From: a virus
Strand: one strand, 5' to 3'
DNA: 18,432 nucleotides
UHGV virus genome: UHGV-1652841
In this document: positions 7,978 to 14,819 of the stretch, one piece after another
Layout of the letters: every line of letters begins with the position of its first letter
Position numbering within the stretch: the stretch's first letter is position 1
Notes under the pieces: model-generated
Database searches by the model: none
The model's input: only the letters and a program-made list of their open reading frames with translations
What the model was told of the DNA's origin: nothing
Translations under genes and position numbers: made by a program

Positions 7978-8580
7978 TCATCCCCCGAATGCTGATGTAA
8001 CGCTTCCGCCCAGCTGGCTCAGCAAGGATTCGTTTGGCGGTGTAGTGGATTTCATCCCGGAATTCTGCACCGCCGATGTGCTGACGCCATCCTGCATATC
8101 TGATTTATCTGCAACGCTAACGCTCTGCGTCTGCGACATGATCACTTCACGCAGGGTAAGCGTGCAGTTCAGCACGTTCTCGCTGGTTTTATCCGTTGTC
8201 ACCTCGATGGCTCGCACCAGCATATTGCTGTAAACCCGCTTTCCGGTCACTACATCGAACGGCACCCGAGAGGACTGGAGATCCAGTAGTTGCTGATAGG
8301 TCTCTTTCGGGCTAAGTCCGGCGCTGAGGCCGATTGACGATGTATCAATGAAGTCCAGCAACGAACCGCCACCTGCGAAGCCGCATTCCATCGTGACTTC
8401 GCTGGGGCGCTTATACGCATGATCGGCGATGAAACCCGACGCGCTATTCGTTGTTGGCTTCTCCACCGGGTGCTCAGTAATTTCGAGCGCATCAGAATGC
8501 TTTTCGGAAACGACCACGCTGGGGATCAGCAGGCCAATTCGCCGGGATTGCTGGCGAAAAATCGCTGATAAAATATCCAT
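7978..8580 (-). CDS. Tail protein occupying the position of the Mu gp43 (DNA circulation-type) gene
   Basis: 200 aa; start ATG overlaps the tape-measure stop (TAATG). Family assignment is uncertain; the call is mainly positional. Confidence 0.45.
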   Translation of the reverse strand: MDILSAIFRQQSRRIGLLIPSVVVSEKHSDALEITEHPVEKPTTNSASGFIADHAYKRPSEVTMECGFAGGGSLLDFIDTSSIGLSAGLSPKETYQQLLDLQSSRVPFDVVTGKRVYSNMLVRAIEVTTDKTSENVLNCTLTLREVIMSQTQSVSVADKSDMQDGVSTSAVQNSGMKSTTPPNESLLSQLGGSVTSAFGG

Positions 8581-10217
8581 TATCTCGGTCCTGCGGGGAG
8601 TTGCTGGGTTAACTGTGAATTCACGCCCTTTTGACGGTCAACAGTCAAACGGGCAGCCTCGCGCGGATCGGAAACGCCGTGGATGTTAATGTTCGTTTCC
8701 TGCTGAATCACCGGGGCGCTGGTGGGCATATTGCTCATCACTTTCGGAATGTAGTTGCGCGTTTCCTGCGGCATTAGCCCCATTCCATAACGCTTAACAT
8801 TCCCGATCCCCCAGTTATATGATGCCAGTGCTTTGCTAAGGTCTCCGCCGTTCTGCCGCAACAGCTGGCTGAGGTACTTAGCGGCTGCCTGAGCTGACTT
8901 TTCCGGGTCGAATACATCATTCCCACGCAGGCCCATGTCGCGCGCCGTGCCATCCATAAACTGAAACAGTCCTTTCGCGCCTGCGCCGGATATGGCGAAC
9001 TGGTTACCACCCGACTCGGTGATCGCCACGCTTTTCAACAGGCCAGCTGGCAGCTGATAAAGCGACTCCAGTTTATTGAACATTGGCCCCATCCAGTCGA
9101 GCAATACCTTGCCCTGGGCCGTCGCCTGAGGTCGCTTAACCGACTGCGCTCGCTGCTCCGGCTCCAGTCCCATCTCCTGAATTTTTCGCTGGATTTGCTC
9201 ATCAGTGAAAAAGTCTTTGCCGGGATTTTCCTTTCTCAGCGCCTCATATGCCTGCTGCCTTTCAGGTACGATATTGCTGCCTATACCGCCAATCGACGCC
9301 ATTTCTTCACTGGTGGTCGGCGTATTGTTGGCAGGAATGAACATAAGCAACCATGGATTCTTGATTGCCAGCTGTGCGATCCCCTGCGCCAGCTTACCCA
9401 GCCCACCAATAGAGCCGCCAATTGCCTTACCAAGCCCCATAAATCCGGCGACAAGTCGCCCGATGCCAGTGAGCATGGAGACCAGCTTCGCACCAGCCAG
9501 AAAGCCAAACAGGATGGTGAGCGTATTTTTCCAGCCGCCGAGGTTGTCCTTGAGCTCCAGAAACTTATCGCGCAGCCACTTGAACACCTTCTTTGCCTGC
9601 TCAATTTCTGGCTGCCATTTGGACCAGTCAATCAGGCTTTTACCGCCCTCTTTCCACGTCTGGTAATCGTCGTACAGCAATCCGATCGCCAGAATCAGTG
9701 TGGTGATAATTCCAATCGGGGATTTCAGGAACGCAGAATTAAGCAGACGCCATGCGACCAGTAGAGCACCGAATATTTTCAGCAGATTTTTACTGCCATC
9801 GTCAAGACGCTTCCACCAGTCGATGACAGAGCCAGCGCCCTGTATCAGCCGCCACGCCATTCTCGTGAATGCGTTCGCAAGCCAGATCACGCCTTTAATA
9901 ACTCTGGTCAGCGTCTCTTCAATCTTCGGGAAATTGTCGAGGATGCGCCGCCGCAGGCTGTCCAGCGAACCAGCCAGGCCACCAGCGAGGTTTGAGCCGA
10001 TCTTGTCCCGCATGATGCCGAACAGCGACGTAAGCCCGCGCATGGACGTCATGAATTTGTTGGACTGAACAGCCGCTTTATCAGCGTTGAACCCTGTCTT
10101 TTGCAGCATCGACTGGTAATCGGCGGTAAAGCCATTCATGCCGCGCCGCATCGCCATCAGCGTGTTTTCATCGATGCCAAGCATCTGCGCGTATTGTTTC
10201 GCGCGGTAATACGGCAT
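8580..10217 (-). CDS. Tail tape measure protein with C-terminal lytic transglycosylase (SLT) domain
   Basis: 545 aa; central hydrophobic segments; C-terminal SLT-like motif ...VAITESGGNQFAISGAGAKGLFQFMDGTARDMGL...YNWGIGNV; position upstream of baseplate genes. Upstream context is a deletion junction, so the N-terminus may not be native. Confidence 0.75.
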   Translation of the reverse strand: MPYYRAKQYAQMLGIDENTLMAMRRGMNGFTADYQSMLQKTGFNADKAAVQSNKFMTSMRGLTSLFGIMRDKIGSNLAGGLAGSLDSLRRRILDNFPKIEETLTRVIKGVIWLANAFTRMAWRLIQGAGSVIDWWKRLDDGSKNLLKIFGALLVAWRLLNSAFLKSPIGIITTLILAIGLLYDDYQTWKEGGKSLIDWSKWQPEIEQAKKVFKWLRDKFLELKDNLGGWKNTLTILFGFLAGAKLVSMLTGIGRLVAGFMGLGKAIGGSIGGLGKLAQGIAQLAIKNPWLLMFIPANNTPTTSEEMASIGGIGSNIVPERQQAYEALRKENPGKDFFTDEQIQRKIQEMGLEPEQRAQSVKRPQATAQGKVLLDWMGPMFNKLESLYQLPAGLLKSVAITESGGNQFAISGAGAKGLFQFMDGTARDMGLRGNDVFDPEKSAQAAAKYLSQLLRQNGGDLSKALASYNWGIGNVKRYGMGLMPQETRNYIPKVMSNMPTSAPVIQQETNINIHGVSDPREAARLTVDRQKGVNSQLTQQLPAGPR

Positions 10218-10323
10218 GTTGTTGAGCTTTTGCCCAACCCGCCCTGATAGCTGCCTGTGTGGCGTTTAAATCTTTCAGGTACTCACGGGCAAACAGCTCT
10301 TGTTTGTCGGTGAGCTTTGCCAT
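10174..10323 (-). pseudogene. Terminase small subunit, N-terminal stub (about 28 native residues, then out-of-context sequence)
   Basis: MAKLTDKQELFAREYLKDLNATQAAIRAG matches the conserved N-terminus of P27-type terminase small subunits; after AAIRAG the frame reads WAKAQQHAVLPRETIRADAWHR-stop. No terminase large subunit, portal or capsid genes follow. Confidence 0.6.
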
Positions 10324-13228: not shown

Positions 13229-13259
13229 GTTGCCAGTTTTCAATGAAGATAATGCGGGC

Positions 13260-13286
13260 AAAAAAAGCCTGCTCGGACGAACAGGC
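13260..13286 (-). terminator. Intrinsic terminator (minus strand) in the Q-to-lysis intergenic zone
   Basis: Stem GCCTG / CAGGC with 10-nt loop, followed on the minus strand by TTTTTTT. Confidence 0.4.
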
Positions 13287-13665
13287 ATGAAAAATAACAA
13301 TACCGTCAAGGAGGTGGCGCCGGGTGCCTCCCGGTGGAACAGCCCCAGCCGACTAGTTCCGCGCAAACAAACCTGGACAAAAAAGTTTGACTGGACGCCC
13401 CGCCGCATAGGGGGATTCACCACGAACCAAAAGATAAAATCATCCGGTGACCGGGGCAATATCTAACCGGAACTTTTCAGAATCACTTATTGTTTCCTGG
13501 AGAGTACATGAGCGTTGGTGAATTCACGTGATGCTTTTGGATGAGCGCTGAACCCAAAGGTCAGTATTTTCACACAGCAATTTTGCAAAAAGCAGCGCCC
13601 ATTCAAAACCAGGTCGCTTTCCAGTCACTCCGGGGAACCCATCATCGCAGACTGGAAAGCTTTTA

Positions 13666-13694
13666 CTGGAGCGGGCAAAGGAATCGAACCTCTG
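13666..13694 (-). other. tRNA 3'-end-like fragment (T-arm, acceptor 3' strand, CCA); possible att-core or tRNA remnant
   Basis: Minus strand reads AGAGGTTCGATTCCTTTGCCCGCTCCA: canonical GGTTCGATTCC T-loop and a ...CCCGCTCCA 3' end resembling a Gly-tRNA terminus. No complementary 5' acceptor strand within about 80 nt upstream. Confidence 0.3.
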
Positions 13695-13703
13695 ACGCGC
13701 AGC

Positions 13704-13958
13704 TTATTTCCAGCTTTCGCCATTTAAGGCTGAAAGCACTGTTTGATGTGTTACACCAAACATTCTCCCTAGCCCTCTGGCTCCATAAACCTTATGTCGT
13801 GGAATGTAGTTTTCTCTGATGAACTGGACGCTGTCCATTGTTAGCTTGCTCATACCATTCAGCTCACCAGCTACTAAGTAGCTAAGGTCAAATTTGGTTT
13901 TCTGAATGTGGCATGCAGAACATAGTAGTTGGCACTTTTCAACCTCAGCATAAAACAC
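13704..13958 (-). CDS. HNH endonuclease-like remnant with C-terminal HTH-like region
   Basis: 84 aa, GTG start right after an in-frame TAG; begins inside an HNH-type zinc motif (…LLCSACHIQKT…) without the upstream HNH residues; C-terminus ...FIRENYIPRHKVYGARGLGRMFGVTHQTVLSALNGESWK resembles HTH tails of phage HNH proteins. Confidence 0.35.
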   Translation of the reverse strand: MFYAEVEKCQLLCSACHIQKTKFDLSYLVAGELNGMSKLTMDSVQFIRENYIPRHKVYGARGLGRMFGVTHQTVLSALNGESWK

Positions 13959-14165
13959 CTAATCTGAGTGATAGTGCATCTCGCTTACATTTGCTGATTT
14001 GGTGGAAGGGTCTATGTGGTCAAACTGAAGCGAATATTCGGATCCGCAACTCGCGCAACGACCACCCAACTTTTCCACGGTCTTAGCAAGCCTAGCCCTT
14101 CGATTAAGATAGTAATCTTTGCTCGGCATTTACCACCTCTACCATTGGAGCTAAACCAGCATGTT

Positions 14166-14240
14166 TGGCGGGATAGCGTGGACTCGAACCACGATAAGAA
14201 GGTTAACAGCCTTCCGTAATGACCTTTATACGACTGACCC
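14166..14240 (-). tRNA. tRNA-like element, anticodon GTT (Asn-type), imperfect acceptor and D stems; possibly degenerate
   Basis: Minus strand: GGGTCAG-T-CGTA-TAAAGGTCAT-TACG-GAAGG-CTGTTAA-CCTTC-TTAT-CGTGG-TTCGAGT-CCACG-CTATCCC-G-CCA. Perfect anticodon and T arms and encoded CCA, but two adjacent mismatches in the acceptor stem and no nucleotide 26. Lies 60-90 nt downstream of the Q gene. Confidence 0.35.
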
Positions 14241-14330
14241 AAATAAAAAAGCCACCGTTGCAACTTAAGAGTCACTAACGGCAGCTTATGCGAATAGTGT
14301 TGCTCATTTGCTCAATGATGTCAACACGTT

Positions 14331-14819
14331 CTATGCTACATGTTTAATTTTCTCTACACGTTTCCGGTTTTTAAACGCACTATCCAGAACCGGGTAAATC
14401 ATAAACAACGAGGCATTGAGGATTTCGTCAACTTCCCGACGACAGGTTGCGAGCGATGGTTTTTGAATGCGCCCTCCGCCCCGGCATAACATCTTGCGAG
14501 GTCTTGCGACGCGATGATAGTAAGATGCAATGGCGTGCTTGGAAGATCCATGGGCGTAGTAGCTGAGGAGGATGCCAAAGGCTTTCTTGTCAATGTACAT
14601 GACGGAATCGACGACCTGAGAAATCAACATTCCATCATCATCATTGCACATTGGCCTTGTCATAACTCTTCCCGGCTCTACGCTCTCCATGAACTTCGCT
14701 ATTACGCTGCTCATGCGCTTTTCAAGACGACCTGAATAAACCCATGCCCCCCACAGTTCAAGCCAGCCATTCAGCCACTCGTGCTGCTCTTTGGTGAGGT
14801 TTAGTTCTCTTATGCCCAT
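14331..14819 (-). CDS. Late-gene antiterminator Q (QuuD-like family)
   Basis: 162 aa; LELWGAWVYSG...RPMCNDDDGMLISQVVD...ILLSYYAHG matches the pattern of lambdoid-prophage Q proteins (…RWGAWAA…RPQCCDDDAMII…DYYV…); position after ninH/rusA and before the lysis genes. Confidence 0.7.
   Translation of the reverse strand: MGIRELNLTKEQHEWLNGWLELWGAWVYSGRLEKRMSSVIAKFMESVEPGRVMTRPMCNDDDGMLISQVVDSVMYIDKKAFGILLSYYAHGSSKHAIASYYHRVARPRKMLCRGGGRIQKPSLATCRREVDEILNASLFMIYPVLDSAFKNRKRVEKIKHVA

What the first reader, a model, noticed from the sequence alone, without database searches (positions are those of the whole stretch)
14166..14240. tRNA-like element (anticodon GTT) just downstream of the Q gene, with a defective acceptor stem
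Anticodon arm (GAAGG-CTGTTAA-CCTTC), T arm (CGTGG-TTCGAGT-CCACG) and CCA end are canonical, but the 5' acceptor strand GGGTCAG does not fully pair with CTATCCC (two adjacent mismatches). Lambdoid phages often carry tRNA genes between Q and the lysis genes. This could be a decaying phage tRNA, or a 3' tRNA half carried as an att-type sequence; the minus-strand TTGACA at 14319-14324 would sit upstream of it.
Basis: seen in the sequence. Interest (0 to 1): 0.5.

Follow-up and report, generated by a model that had tools for sequence, protein, structure and literature searches.

The report
Phage 21-type tRNA-Asn gene, point-mutated
This is the well-known asparagine tRNA gene that phage 21 and many related phages carry just after their late-gene switch; one of its two stem mismatches is a conserved family trait and the other is a private mutation in a broken prophage, so the finding is largely ordinary.

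Summary
ARAGORN and Rfam call a 75-nt tRNA-Asn(GTT) at 14240..14166 on the minus strand, with acceptor mismatches U4•U69 and C5•A68.

It is not an odd tRNA-like element. It is the phage 21-type tRNA-Asn. The upstream Q protein is 100% identical to phage 21 Q. The pR' promoter, Q-binding element and tR' terminator match phage 21 apart from one T, and the tRNA starts right after the tR' T-run.

U4•U69 is a family hallmark. It occurs in nearly all of about 165 phage 21/Klebsiella-type loci and in all 115 loci of a divergent HK639-type lineage, while other stems show compensatory changes.

Only C5•A68 (G68A, window 14174) is private. It occurs only in this same element: an IMG/VR locus and one independent ENA contig, both 100% identical.

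That element is a defective prophage with a terminase-to-tape-measure deletion, an amber-mutated HNH gene and a truncated partner tRNA-Thr. Early decay is therefore plausible but unproven.

The att-type half-tRNA idea is rejected.

The family probably supplies a replacement tRNA-Asn during late infection. By inference it resists the PARIS AriB and P2-OLD nucleases.

The parts
14331..14819 (-). Q antiterminator gene, phage 21 type (162 aa)
   Evidence: Pfam Phage_antitermQ at 87 bits. The protein is 100% identical (162/162) to phage 21 Q.
14296..14324 (-). Late promoter pR': -35 TTGACA (14324..14319), Q-binding element ATTGAGCA+AATGAGCA (14316..14301), -10 AACACT (14301..14296). The inferred transcription start is at 14289.
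   Evidence: Base-for-base identical to the annotated phage 21 pR'/QBE/-10/TSS in OL657228. Coordinates were transferred by alignment.
14241..14287 (-). tR' intrinsic terminator: a 17-bp interrupted hairpin followed by UUUUUUAUUU. The short terminated transcript is the 'aRNA' of the old phage 21 record.
   Evidence: Fold energy -20.2 kcal/mol, z = -4.8, 0 of 200 shuffles as good. Annotated as a terminator in phage 21 (PMID 1704887) and as 'tR' late terminator' in Nil2. It differs from phage 21 only by one fewer T.
14166..14240 (-). tRNA-Asn(GUU) gene, the finding itself. It has U4•U69 (family-wide) and C5•A68 (private G68A at 14174), discriminator G73 and an encoded CCA.
   Evidence: ARAGORN. 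Rfam 51.0 bits. One substitution away from the phage 21 tRNA-Asn.
14137..14160 (-). 5' stub (first 24 nt) of the partner tRNA-Thr(UGU), cut off in the D arm
   Evidence: Identical to nt 1-24 of phage 21 tRNA-Thr. Homology ends at GGTAGAG. No 3' part of tRNA-Thr is present anywhere in the window.
13704..14129 (-). HNH endonuclease ORF that replaced the rest of tRNA-Thr. In the window it carries an in-frame TAG at 13961..13959.
   Evidence: The intact 141-aa homologue in E. coli KL53 matches Pfam HNH. The window has Ser57 TCG changed to TAG. The independent contig L291 has the same stop.
13667..13705 (-). 3' stub of a tRNA-Gly(UCC)-like gene, running from anticodon-loop A37/A38 to CCA, directly after the HNH stop codon
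   Evidence: Aligns with nt 37-76 of the PhiR47_1 tRNA-Gly and with HK639. Its 3' acceptor strand TGCCCGC is not complementary to the tRNA-Thr stub. ARAGORN finds no tRNA here.
13256..13448 (-). STnc100-like RNA element ending in a strong terminator, upstream of the holin gene (context only)
   Evidence: Rfam RF02076 at 71.7 bits against a gathering score of 47. Terminator-like hairpin at 13286..13267 followed by seven T's.

Best explanation
Identity. The element is a genuine copy of the phage 21-type tRNA-Asn(GUU) gene. It is the first gene downstream of the tR' terminator of a Q21-controlled late operon.

Expression (inferred from phage 21 biology). The constitutive promoter pR' makes a roughly 50-nt RNA that stops at tR'. 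When Q21 binds its element and modifies RNA polymerase, transcription reads through tR' into the tRNA and then the lysis genes. RNase P would cut at G1, directly after the terminator's U-run. The CCA end is encoded. Host AsnRS should charge the tRNA, because the known identity set (G34, U35, U36, G73) is present.

The two mismatches. U4•U69 is a conserved feature of lambdoid-phage tRNA-Asn genes and is not damage. C5•A68 comes from a single G68A transition private to this element. It costs about 3.8 kcal/mol of predicted cloverleaf stability, but the cloverleaf remains the predicted minimum-energy fold. The element sits in a deletion-crippled prophage that has also lost the partner tRNA-Thr and carries an amber-mutated HNH gene. 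G68A is therefore most simply a neutral or mildly damaging mutation under relaxed selection. I put the chance that this copy still yields some functional tRNA at roughly 60%.

Family function (inferred, about 50%). The tRNA-Asn(GUU)+tRNA-Thr(UGU) cassette supplies nuclease-resistant replacements for the two host tRNAs that both the PARIS AriB and P2-OLD Toprim nucleases cleave.
For: Identity and architecture:
- tRNA calls by two methods.
- Q is 100% identical to phage 21 Q.
- The pR'/QBE/tR'/tRNA segment is 99% identical over 205 nt to phage 21. In that genome the promoter, QBE, TSS, pause element, terminator, tRNA-Asn and tRNA-Thr are individually annotated with PMIDs.
- The tR' hairpin folds at -20.2 kcal/mol, z = -4.8.
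- In 127 loci the tRNA always abuts a T-run, behind at least four different upstream sequence classes. This indicates a cassette kept in several late-promoter contexts.

The tRNA is under selection:
- Compensatory double changes occur at 6:67, 7:66 and 28:42 in the Klebsiella-phage clade.
- 8 of 14 non-acceptor stem pairs are changed on both sides between the phage 21-type and HK639-type.

U4•U69 is conserved:
- It is unpaired in 19 of 21 distinct phage 21/Klebsiella-type sequences.
- It is present in all 9 distinct HK639-type sequences, covering 115 loci.

G68A is private but real:
- The only matches are an IMG/VR locus and an ENA metagenome contig, both 100% identical to the window over 13.8 and 14.8 kb.
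- It is absent from 185,579 species-representative genomes.
- No full-length 100% match appears at the top of the ranking among 5426 complete E. coli genomes.
- The closest relative, KL53, has G68.

Stability: predicted energy is -17.8 (window), -21.6 (canonical) and -25.6 kcal/mol (hypothetical fully paired). Acceptor pair probabilities stay above 0.9. Rfam scores are 51.0 against 55.3 bits.

Defective prophage:
- A 34-aa terminase small subunit stub is fused to tape-measure residue 149.
- The HNH gene has an amber codon.
- tRNA-Thr is truncated.

Counter-defence inference:
- P2-OLD kills by cleaving host tRNA-Thr(UGU) and also cuts tRNA-Asn(GUU). Phage 21's own tRNA-Thr protects.
- AriB targets Lys(UUU) and Thr(UGU), with Asn(GUU) as a secondary but biologically relevant target. 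U39 is critical for its cleavage.
- Host tRNA-Asn has U36AAU39C|C and paired CNG motifs. The phage tRNA-Asn has U36AAC39C|U and no CNG motif.
Against: - No expression, processing or charging data exist for this tRNA-Asn, either here or in the papers I could read.
- A tandem U•U/C•A internal loop in the acceptor stem could impair RNase P processing or stability enough to inactivate this copy.
- In a 160-nt precursor context the predicted acceptor-stem probability falls to 0.08, against 0.99 for a G68 revertant. The wild-type phage 21 precursor control also scores 0.03, so this test does not discriminate.
- The counter-defence role is shown only for the partner tRNA-Thr, not for tRNA-Asn.
- The Klebsiella-phage clade retains paired CNG motifs (CAG/CUG), so by the published rule it would be OLD-sensitive.
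- AriB recognition also depends on distal determinants, so loss of U39 is not proof of resistance.
- The SfI authors found no Asn codon bias and called the tRNA's significance unclear.
Confidence: 0.85

Rival explanations
1. This copy is a dead pseudogene. The added C5•A68 next to U4•U69 opens a 2x2 internal loop. RNase P processing, CCA-end maturation or stability then fails, and no functional tRNA-Asn is made. This concerns only the window's copy and is compatible with the family identification.
For: G68A is unique to this element among about 280 family loci, where 5:68 is otherwise C-G with one other exception, L265. The element is a defective prophage with another inactivating mutation 200 nt away and a truncated partner tRNA. 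About 3.8 kcal/mol of predicted stability is lost. The precursor-context fold favours a misfold, pairing CUAUCCC with GGUAGAG of the tRNA-Thr stub.
Against: The cloverleaf is still the predicted MFE, with acceptor pair probabilities above 0.9. Rfam still gives 51 bits, well above the threshold of 29. All tertiary-interaction and identity nucleotides are intact. The precursor-fold control fails for wild-type phage 21, so that test is uninformative. C•A can form a wobble-like pair (general knowledge, not tested here).
Confidence: 0.35
2. The family's role is plain codon supplementation: extra tRNA-Asn boosts translation of Asn-rich late structural proteins, with no link to host nucleases.
For: This is the classical explanation for phage tRNAs. 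The partner tRNA-Thr(UGU) matches an ACA codon excess in SfI, 17.3% against 7.1% in the host. The position at the head of the late operon fits a need during virion protein synthesis.
Against: The SfI authors found no Asn codon bias and called the tRNA-Asn unexplained. E. coli already has about 4 asn tRNA genes per genome, and a single isoacceptor reads both Asn codons. The Asn+Thr(UGU) pairing matches the shared target set of AriB and P2-OLD, and phage 21 tRNA-Thr acts experimentally as an anti-OLD factor.
Confidence: 0.25
3. The tRNA acts mainly in cis as an RNA-processing signal. RNase P and 3'-end cleavage at the tRNA detach the terminator hairpin leader from read-through late transcripts and set the 5' end of the lysis mRNA. 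Decoding would be secondary.
For: The tRNA 5' end abuts the terminator U-run in every one of the 127 loci examined, across several terminator types.
Against: The anticodon loop, G73, the T loop and D-loop G18G19 are invariant, and stems covary to preserve a full cloverleaf. That is more than a processing signal needs. Many lambdoid phages lack any tRNA at this position (general knowledge; one search shows HK75 and CUS-3 without one under the match).
Confidence: 0.08
4. It is a 3' tRNA half, or a tRNA-derived attachment-site remnant carried at a prophage boundary.
For: None for this element. Genuine tRNA stubs do lie nearby: the tRNA-Thr 5' stub and the tRNA-Gly 3' stub.
Against: The gene is full length with both acceptor strands. 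It sits between Q and the lysis genes in the interior of the element. It shares only 48 of 78 aligned columns with the host asn tRNA. It occupies the same internal position in more than 120 phage contigs.
Confidence: 0.01

Closest known systems
Phage 21 tRNA-Asn (CPT_21_64 in OL657228). The same gene is reported in SfI, Sf6, ST64T, PS3, Kapi1, mEp506 and phage L.
   Same: Same position, immediately after tR' downstream of Q. The Q protein is identical and the pR'/QBE/tR' segment is the same. 74 of 75 nucleotides are identical, including U4•U69, G73 and the encoded CCA.
   Different: The window has G68A, which adds C5•A68. The terminator T-run is one T shorter. The tandem partner tRNA-Thr(UGU) is truncated after nt 24 by an HNH-bearing segment.
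HK639-type lambdoid tRNA-Asn
   Same: Same anticodon, same position right after a Q-linked terminator, and an identical acceptor stem GGGUCAG/CUGUCCC with U4•U69, G73 and CCA. C39 replaces the host's U39 here too.
   Different: The D arm, anticodon stem, variable loop and T stem all differ: 8 of 14 pairs are changed on both sides. It has A8 instead of U8.
Nuclease-resistant phage tRNAs: T5 tRNA-Lys/Thr/Asn against PARIS AriB, and phage 21 tRNA-Thr against P2-OLD
   Same: Same anticodon as a demonstrated secondary target of both nucleases. It carries substitutions at the published determinants: U39 to C, position 41 changed, and no paired CNG motif in the phage 21 type. Its natural partner is the experimentally protective tRNA-Thr21.
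   Different: Resistance and rescue have never been tested for this tRNA-Asn. The Klebsiella-phage clade keeps the CNG motifs. The protective partner is destroyed in the window.
ileZ-argN-argO tRNA genes downstream of Q/tR' in Stx phages
   Same: They are tRNA genes placed between the late terminator and the late genes, so they are transcribed by Q-modified polymerase.
   Different: The anticodons differ (rare Ile and Arg codons) and the sequences are unrelated. In Q21-type Stx2c phages such as Nil2, only the first 24 nt of the tRNA-Asn remain ahead of that array.

Membership tests
Bacterial elongator tRNA (Rfam RF00005) | Score above the curated threshold, and detection by an independent tRNA finder | tested here: met
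   51.0 bits against a gathering score of 29, E = 1.5e-8. ARAGORN reports tRNA-Asn gtt.
Bacterial elongator tRNA (Rfam RF00005) | Four-stem cloverleaf with a fully paired 7-bp acceptor stem | tested here: inconclusive
   The D, anticodon and T stems are fine. The acceptor has 5 of 7 pairs, with U4•U69 and C5•A68 unpaired. The cloverleaf is still the predicted MFE at -17.8 kcal/mol.
Bacterial elongator tRNA (Rfam RF00005) | Conserved tertiary nucleotides: U8, A14, G18G19, U33, T-loop UUCGA with A58 | tested here: met
   All are present in the sequence and invariant across 21 distinct family sequences.
tRNA-Asn (substrate of E. coli AsnRS) | Identity set G34-U35-U36 plus discriminator G73 (from my knowledge of Li, Pelka & Schulman 1993; not verified in a held paper) | tested here: met
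   The anticodon loop is CUGUUAA and the 3' end is ...CCC-G-CCA. Aminoacylation itself cannot be tested with these tools.
Phage 21-type late-operon tRNA-Asn | Lies directly after the tR' T-run downstream of a Q gene and upstream of the lysis genes | tested here: met
   The order on the minus strand is Q 14819..14331, tR' 14287..14241, tRNA 14240..14166, then holin, lysozyme and Rz further on.
Phage 21-type late-operon tRNA-Asn | Near-identity to the family sequence, including the U4•U69 acceptor mismatch | tested here: met
   74 of 75 nt identical to the sequence found in 104 loci. U4•U69 is present.
Phage 21-type late-operon tRNA-Asn | Tandem partner tRNA-Thr(UGU) 5 nt downstream | tested here: not met
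   Only nt 1-24 of tRNA-Thr remain (14160..14137), and there is no 3' part in the window. This is a usual accompaniment, present in most of the 127 loci, and not a requirement for the tRNA-Asn itself.
Nuclease-resistant (anti-AriB / anti-OLD) phage tRNA | Same anticodon as a host tRNA cleaved by the nuclease | tested here: met
   Host tRNA-Asn(GUU) is a secondary target of AriB and a substrate of P2-OLD.
Nuclease-resistant (anti-AriB / anti-OLD) phage tRNA | Substitutions at the cleavage determinants: U39/N41 for AriB, and paired CNG at 28-30/40-42 for OLD | tested here: met
   Host: UAAUC|C with CGG/CCG. Window and phage 21: UAACC|U with AAG/CUU. Caveat: the Klebsiella-clade homologues keep CAG/CUG.
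Nuclease-resistant (anti-AriB / anti-OLD) phage tRNA | Resists cleavage in vitro and rescues growth or infection | not testable with these tools
   This has been shown only for phage 21 tRNA-Thr and for T5 tRNAs.
tRNA-derived att site / 3' tRNA half | A partial tRNA (usually the 3' part) duplicating a host tRNA at a prophage end next to an integrase | tested here: not met
   The gene is full length and internal, and shares 48 of 78 aligned columns with the host asn tRNA.
tRNA pseudogene | A disrupted cloverleaf or lost invariant nucleotides, with lineage-specific damage | tested here: inconclusive
   There is one lineage-specific stem-breaking substitution (G68A) in a defective prophage. The score, the fold and the invariant nucleotides are retained.

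The most novel reading that the evidence does not exclude
The U4•U69 acceptor mismatch is identical in two lambdoid tRNA-Asn lineages whose other three stems have been almost completely rewritten. It could be a selected functional determinant. Together with the C39 and CNG-less anticodon stem, it could mark this tRNA-Asn as a nuclease-evading replacement tRNA. With tRNA-Thr(UGU) it would form a dedicated, Q-controlled anti-Toprim-nuclease (PARIS AriB / P2-OLD) cassette in temperate phages. [quoted passage not shown] The window's copy would then be a decaying remnant of such a cassette.
Probability: 0.3. Interest if true: 0.55.

Novelty: already known. Interest (0 to 1): 0.22.

Why it matters
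For this locus, little changes. It is a routinely annotated phage tRNA gene carrying one private point mutation, inside a dead prophage.

The comparative work does add two points about the family.

Automated or manual curation should therefore not treat these genes as pseudogenes.

Second, the Asn(GUU)+Thr(UGU) pairing matches the shared target set of two recently characterised E. coli anti-phage nucleases. The phage tRNA-Asn differs from the host tRNA at exactly the published cleavage determinants. This gives a concrete, testable reason for a tRNA whose presence in lambdoid and P22-like phages had been unexplained. About 7% of complete E. coli genomes carry the phage 21-type gene.

Tried and rejected
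1. G68A linked to the HNH insertion (for example a homing-endonuclease immunity or co-conversion mark). Rejected: KL53 has the same insertion at 99.4% identity but carries G68.

2. G68A as an assembly error. Rejected: an independent ENA contig is 100% identical over 14.8 kb.

3. Mismatches created by recombination between two tRNA variants (GGGTCAG/CTGACCC with GGGATAG/CTATCCC). Rejected: no such variants exist among about 280 loci.

4. tRNA-Thr split by an intron-like HNH element. Rejected: there is no 3' tRNA-Thr part in the window, and the 3' stub after the HNH gene belongs to a tRNA-Gly whose acceptor strand is not complementary.

5. Precursor-context folding to judge the damage from G68A. 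Uninformative: the wild-type phage 21 precursor control also fails to show the acceptor stem.

6. The simple promoter scan missed pR' because its -10 (AACACT) is weak. Both were identified by homology to phage 21 and by folding.

7. Guo, Kainz & Roberts 1991 and the ST64T genome paper are not held. Supplementary tables of the OLD paper are not held. An aaRS review did not state the AsnRS identity elements, so that point rests on my own knowledge.

8. MAFFT misaligned the phage 21-type and HK639-type tRNAs around the D and variable loops. I replaced that alignment with a structure-aware comparison.

Full report
**1. The observation**

ARAGORN finds one tRNA in the window: tRNA-Asn (anticodon gtt) at 14166..14240 on the minus strand. 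Rfam's tRNA model scores it 51.0 bits against a gathering score of 29, E = 1.5e-8, and marks the same two non-standard acceptor pairs.

The RNA-sense sequence is GGGUCAG UC GUAU AAAGGUCA UUAC G GAAGG CUGUUAA CCUUC UUAU CGUGG UUCGAGU CCACG CUAUCCC G CCA. The unpaired positions are U4•U69 (window 14237/14173) and C5•A68 (14236/14174). U8, A14, G18G19, U33, the T loop, discriminator G73 and an encoded CCA are all present.

**2. The surroundings**

On the minus strand the order of features is as follows:
- Q, 14819..14331 (Pfam Phage_antitermQ).
- TTGACA, 14324..14319.
- ATTGAGCA+AATGAGCA, 14316..14301.
- AACACT, 14301..14296.
- A long hairpin plus UUUUUUAUUU, 14287..14241.
- The tRNA.

The Q protein is 162/162 identical to phage 21 Q. 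The 205 nt from the Q stop codon to 24 nt past the tRNA are 99% identical to phage 21.

The complete phage 21 genome record annotates that stretch feature by feature:
- the pR' -35
- the Q-binding element (PMID 31455742)
- the -10
- the transcription start
- the sigma-dependent pause element
- the terminator (PMID 1704887)
- tRNA-Asn
- tRNA-Thr
- the S21 holin

An older record calls the ~50-nt terminated transcript 'aRNA'. The hairpin folds at -20.2 kcal/mol, z = -4.8.

A strong terminator lies between it and the tRNA, however. By analogy with phage 21, tRNA transcription should depend on Q antitermination. That step is inferred, not shown here.

**3. A known family**

- The phage 21 genome announcement lists 2 tRNA genes.
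- An exact 39-nt core of the tRNA occurs in at least 120 IMG/VR viral contigs.
- The 75-mer matches 368 of 5426 complete E. coli genomes, where PGAP annotates it as tRNA-Asn.
- In 127 loci the tRNA always abuts a terminator T-run, behind at least four different upstream sequence classes. Only 44 have the Q21 binding element. It therefore behaves as a cassette maintained in several late-control contexts.

**4. The two mismatches are different things**

Among the phage 21-type loci, 104 share one sequence whose 3' acceptor strand is CUGUCCC, which gives a single U4•U69 mismatch. The window's CUAUCCC adds G68A.

A Klebsiella-phage clade (Mulock, 2b LV-2017 and 38 IMG/VR loci) has compensatory double changes at 6:67 (A-U to G-C), 7:66 (G-C to A-U) and 28:42 (A-U to C-G). 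It keeps U4•U69.

Formal counts on 21 distinct sequences:
- 89.8% of cells are paired.
- The covariation score is 0.131, against 0.056 in shuffles (0 of 500 shuffles reach it).
- Pair 4:69 is unpaired in 19 of 21 sequences.
- Pair 5:68 is C-G in 20 of 21. The exception is the window.

A second, much more divergent lineage came to light in HK639. It lies right after that phage's Q terminator and is present in at least 115 IMG/VR loci. Compared with the phage 21 type, 8 of its 14 D, anticodon and T stem pairs are changed on both sides. All seven acceptor positions are identical, U4•U69 included.

U4•U69 is therefore a conserved hallmark of lambdoid-phage tRNA-Asn genes and not decay. Rare variants do restore a wobble pair: U4G once and U69G once. 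Whether the mismatch is selected for something or merely tolerated is not known.

**5. G68A is private but real**

The exact variant is found in only two places:
- an IMG/VR locus that is 100% identical to the window over 13.8 kb
- one contig from an independent ENA metagenome assembly, 100% identical over 14.8 kb

It is absent from 185,579 species-representative genomes. No full-length 100% match appears at the top of the ranking among complete E. coli genomes. The closest relative, E. coli KL53, is 99.4% identical and has the same HNH insertion. It carries G68 and instead has a harmless-looking U60C.

Predicted cloverleaf energies are -17.8 (window), -21.6 (canonical) and -25.6 kcal/mol (hypothetical fully paired). 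The cloverleaf remains the MFE, and the five remaining acceptor pairs keep probabilities above 0.9. Rfam scores are 51.0 against 55.3 bits.

A precursor-context fold suggested a misfold of the G68A allele. The wild-type phage 21 control failed in the same way, so I discount that test.

**6. The host element is a decaying prophage**

- tRNA-Thr stub. Immediately after the tRNA, the first 24 nt of the usual partner tRNA-Thr remain (14160..14137). Homology to phage 21 then stops.
- HNH gene. An HNH endonuclease ORF begins at 14129 and runs to 13704. It is intact in KL53 but has Ser57 changed to TAG in the window.
- tRNA-Gly stub. Right after its stop codon lies a 3' stub of a tRNA-Gly(UCC)-like gene (13705..13667). 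Its acceptor strand does not match the tRNA-Thr stub, so the HNH segment replaced everything between two tRNAs and did not split one.
- Large deletion. Further downstream, the first 34 codons of a terminase small subunit (Pfam Terminase_2, 44.5 bits) run straight into a tape-measure/transglycosylase ORF. That ORF starts at residue 149 of its 670-aa homologue. One deletion has therefore removed the rest of the terminase small-subunit gene and the head, sheath, tube and chaperone genes that precede the tape measure in the intact relative.

A private stem-breaking mutation in such an element is most simply relaxed selection.

**7. What the family probably does**

The SfI authors could explain tRNA-Thr(UGU) by ACA codon bias. 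For tRNA-Asn they found no bias and called its significance unclear. Two 2025 papers suggest an answer.

P2-OLD, the effector of P2-lambda interference, kills by amputating the anticodon arm of host tRNA-Thr(UGU). It cleaves tRNAs that have A37 and paired CNG motifs in the anticodon stem. Host tRNA-Asn(GUU) was among the slower substrates the authors followed. Phage 21's own tRNA-Thr protects against OLD and resists cleavage.

[quoted passage not shown] It cuts between 40 and 41 in the context U36-A-A-U39-C40|N41, and U39 to A abolishes cleavage. The T5 Lys, Thr and Asn variants together rescue.

I verified the host tRNA-Asn sequence: 100% identity in 5425 of 5426 genomes, about 4 copies each. 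The determinant positions compare as follows.

| tRNA | nt 36-41 | nt 28-30 / 40-42 |
|---|---|---|
| Host tRNA-Asn | UAAUC\|C | CGG / CCG (paired CNG) |
| Phage tRNA-Asn, phage 21 type | UAACC\|U | AAG / CUU (no CNG) |
| Phage tRNA-Asn, Klebsiella-phage clade | UAACC\|U | CAG / CUG (CNG kept) |
| Phage tRNA-Asn, HK639 type | UAACC\|G | UCG / CGA (no CNG) |

All three phage lineages thus replace the host's U39 with C39. The lambdoid cassette encodes exactly the two tRNAs targeted by both Toprim nucleases, each altered at the published determinants.

This is inference from sequence and from experiments on the partner tRNA. No one has tested the tRNA-Asn. AriB also needs distal determinants. I give the counter-defence role about 50%, plain codon supplementation about 25%, and a purely cis processing role under 10%.

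A further observation, not specific evidence: the phage tRNA has G1-C72, whereas the host has U1-A72. U1-A72 with G73 is what the CdiA-CT(EC869) toxin prefers, and a G1-C72 variant of its tRNA-Gln substrate was cleaved poorly.

**8. Verdict**

The element is real and correctly described, but it is an already known, routinely annotated gene. The apparent defect is half family trait and half a private mutation in a dead prophage. The att-site reading is refuted.

Overall interest is low. The modest added value is the deep conservation of U4•U69 and a testable link between this long-unexplained tRNA and PARIS/OLD.

Noticed in passing
window 13704-14129 (-), stop at 13959-13961: An HNH endonuclease ORF sits where tRNA-Thr should continue. 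In the window it carries an in-frame amber codon (Ser57 TCG to TAG) relative to the intact 141-aa copy in E. coli KL53. The independent contig L291 has the same stop.
   Followed up: yes
window 14137-14160 (-) and 13667-13705 (-): Two orphan tRNA pieces flank the HNH gene: the first 24 nt of tRNA-Thr(UGU), and the last ~39 nt of a tRNA-Gly(UCC)-like gene (from anticodon-loop A37/A38 to CCA). Their acceptor strands are not complementary. The HNH-bearing segment therefore replaced the interval between two different tRNAs of an ancestral array.
   Followed up: yes
window 10222-10323 (-) joined to 8580-10217 (-): This is a deletion junction. A 34-aa terminase small-subunit stub (Pfam Terminase_2, 44.5 bits) runs into a tape-measure/SLT protein that begins at residue 149 of its 670-aa homologue. 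The rest of the terminase small-subunit gene and the head, sheath, tube and chaperone genes that precede the tape measure in the intact relative are missing, so the prophage is defective.
   Followed up: yes
window 13256-13448 (-): An Rfam STnc100 match (71.7 bits) lies between the tRNA/HNH region and the holin gene and ends in a strong terminator (13286..13267 followed by seven T's). The stretch just upstream (13523..13690) is 92% identical to an unannotated leader in phage HK639. It may be the leader and terminator of a second, different late-control module. Its role was not examined.
   Followed up: partly
L170 1371-1445 (phage HK639) and at least 115 IMG/VR loci (L171 onward): A second lambdoid tRNA-Asn lineage has an identical acceptor stem, U4•U69 included, but a rewritten D arm, anticodon stem and T stem. 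It also has A8 in place of the near-universal U8. It is unannotated in the HK639 RefSeq record.
   Followed up: partly
L129 907-930 (phage Nil2) and other Q21-type Stx2/Stx2c phages: Stx2/Stx2c phages with a Q21-type antiterminator keep tR' plus only the first 24 nt of this tRNA-Asn. An IS285-like insertion follows, then ileZ-argN-argO and stx2A. This is a tRNA-Asn remnant upstream of the toxin genes.
   Followed up: partly
L133, L128, L063, L157 (IMG/VR and Klebsiella phage 2b LV-2017): Several family members encode ...G-ACA instead of ...G-CCA at the 3' end. They would need trimming and repair by the CCA-adding enzyme, or they may be impaired.
   Followed up: no
L127 (Klebsiella phage Mulock) compared with phage 21-type loci: The compensatory change at pair 28:42 (A-U in E. 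coli/Salmonella phages, C-G in Klebsiella phages) switches the paired CNG motif that P2-OLD recognises: absent in the former, present in the latter. This could reflect different nuclease pressures in the two host groups.
   Followed up: no
L169 916-1225 (phage PhiR47_1): Another lambdoid late-leader array carries tRNA-Met, Lys(UUU), Thr(UGU) and Gly(UCC). Lys(UUU) and Thr(UGU) are the two prime AriB targets. This Thr copy keeps the host-like UAAUC|A site.
   Followed up: no
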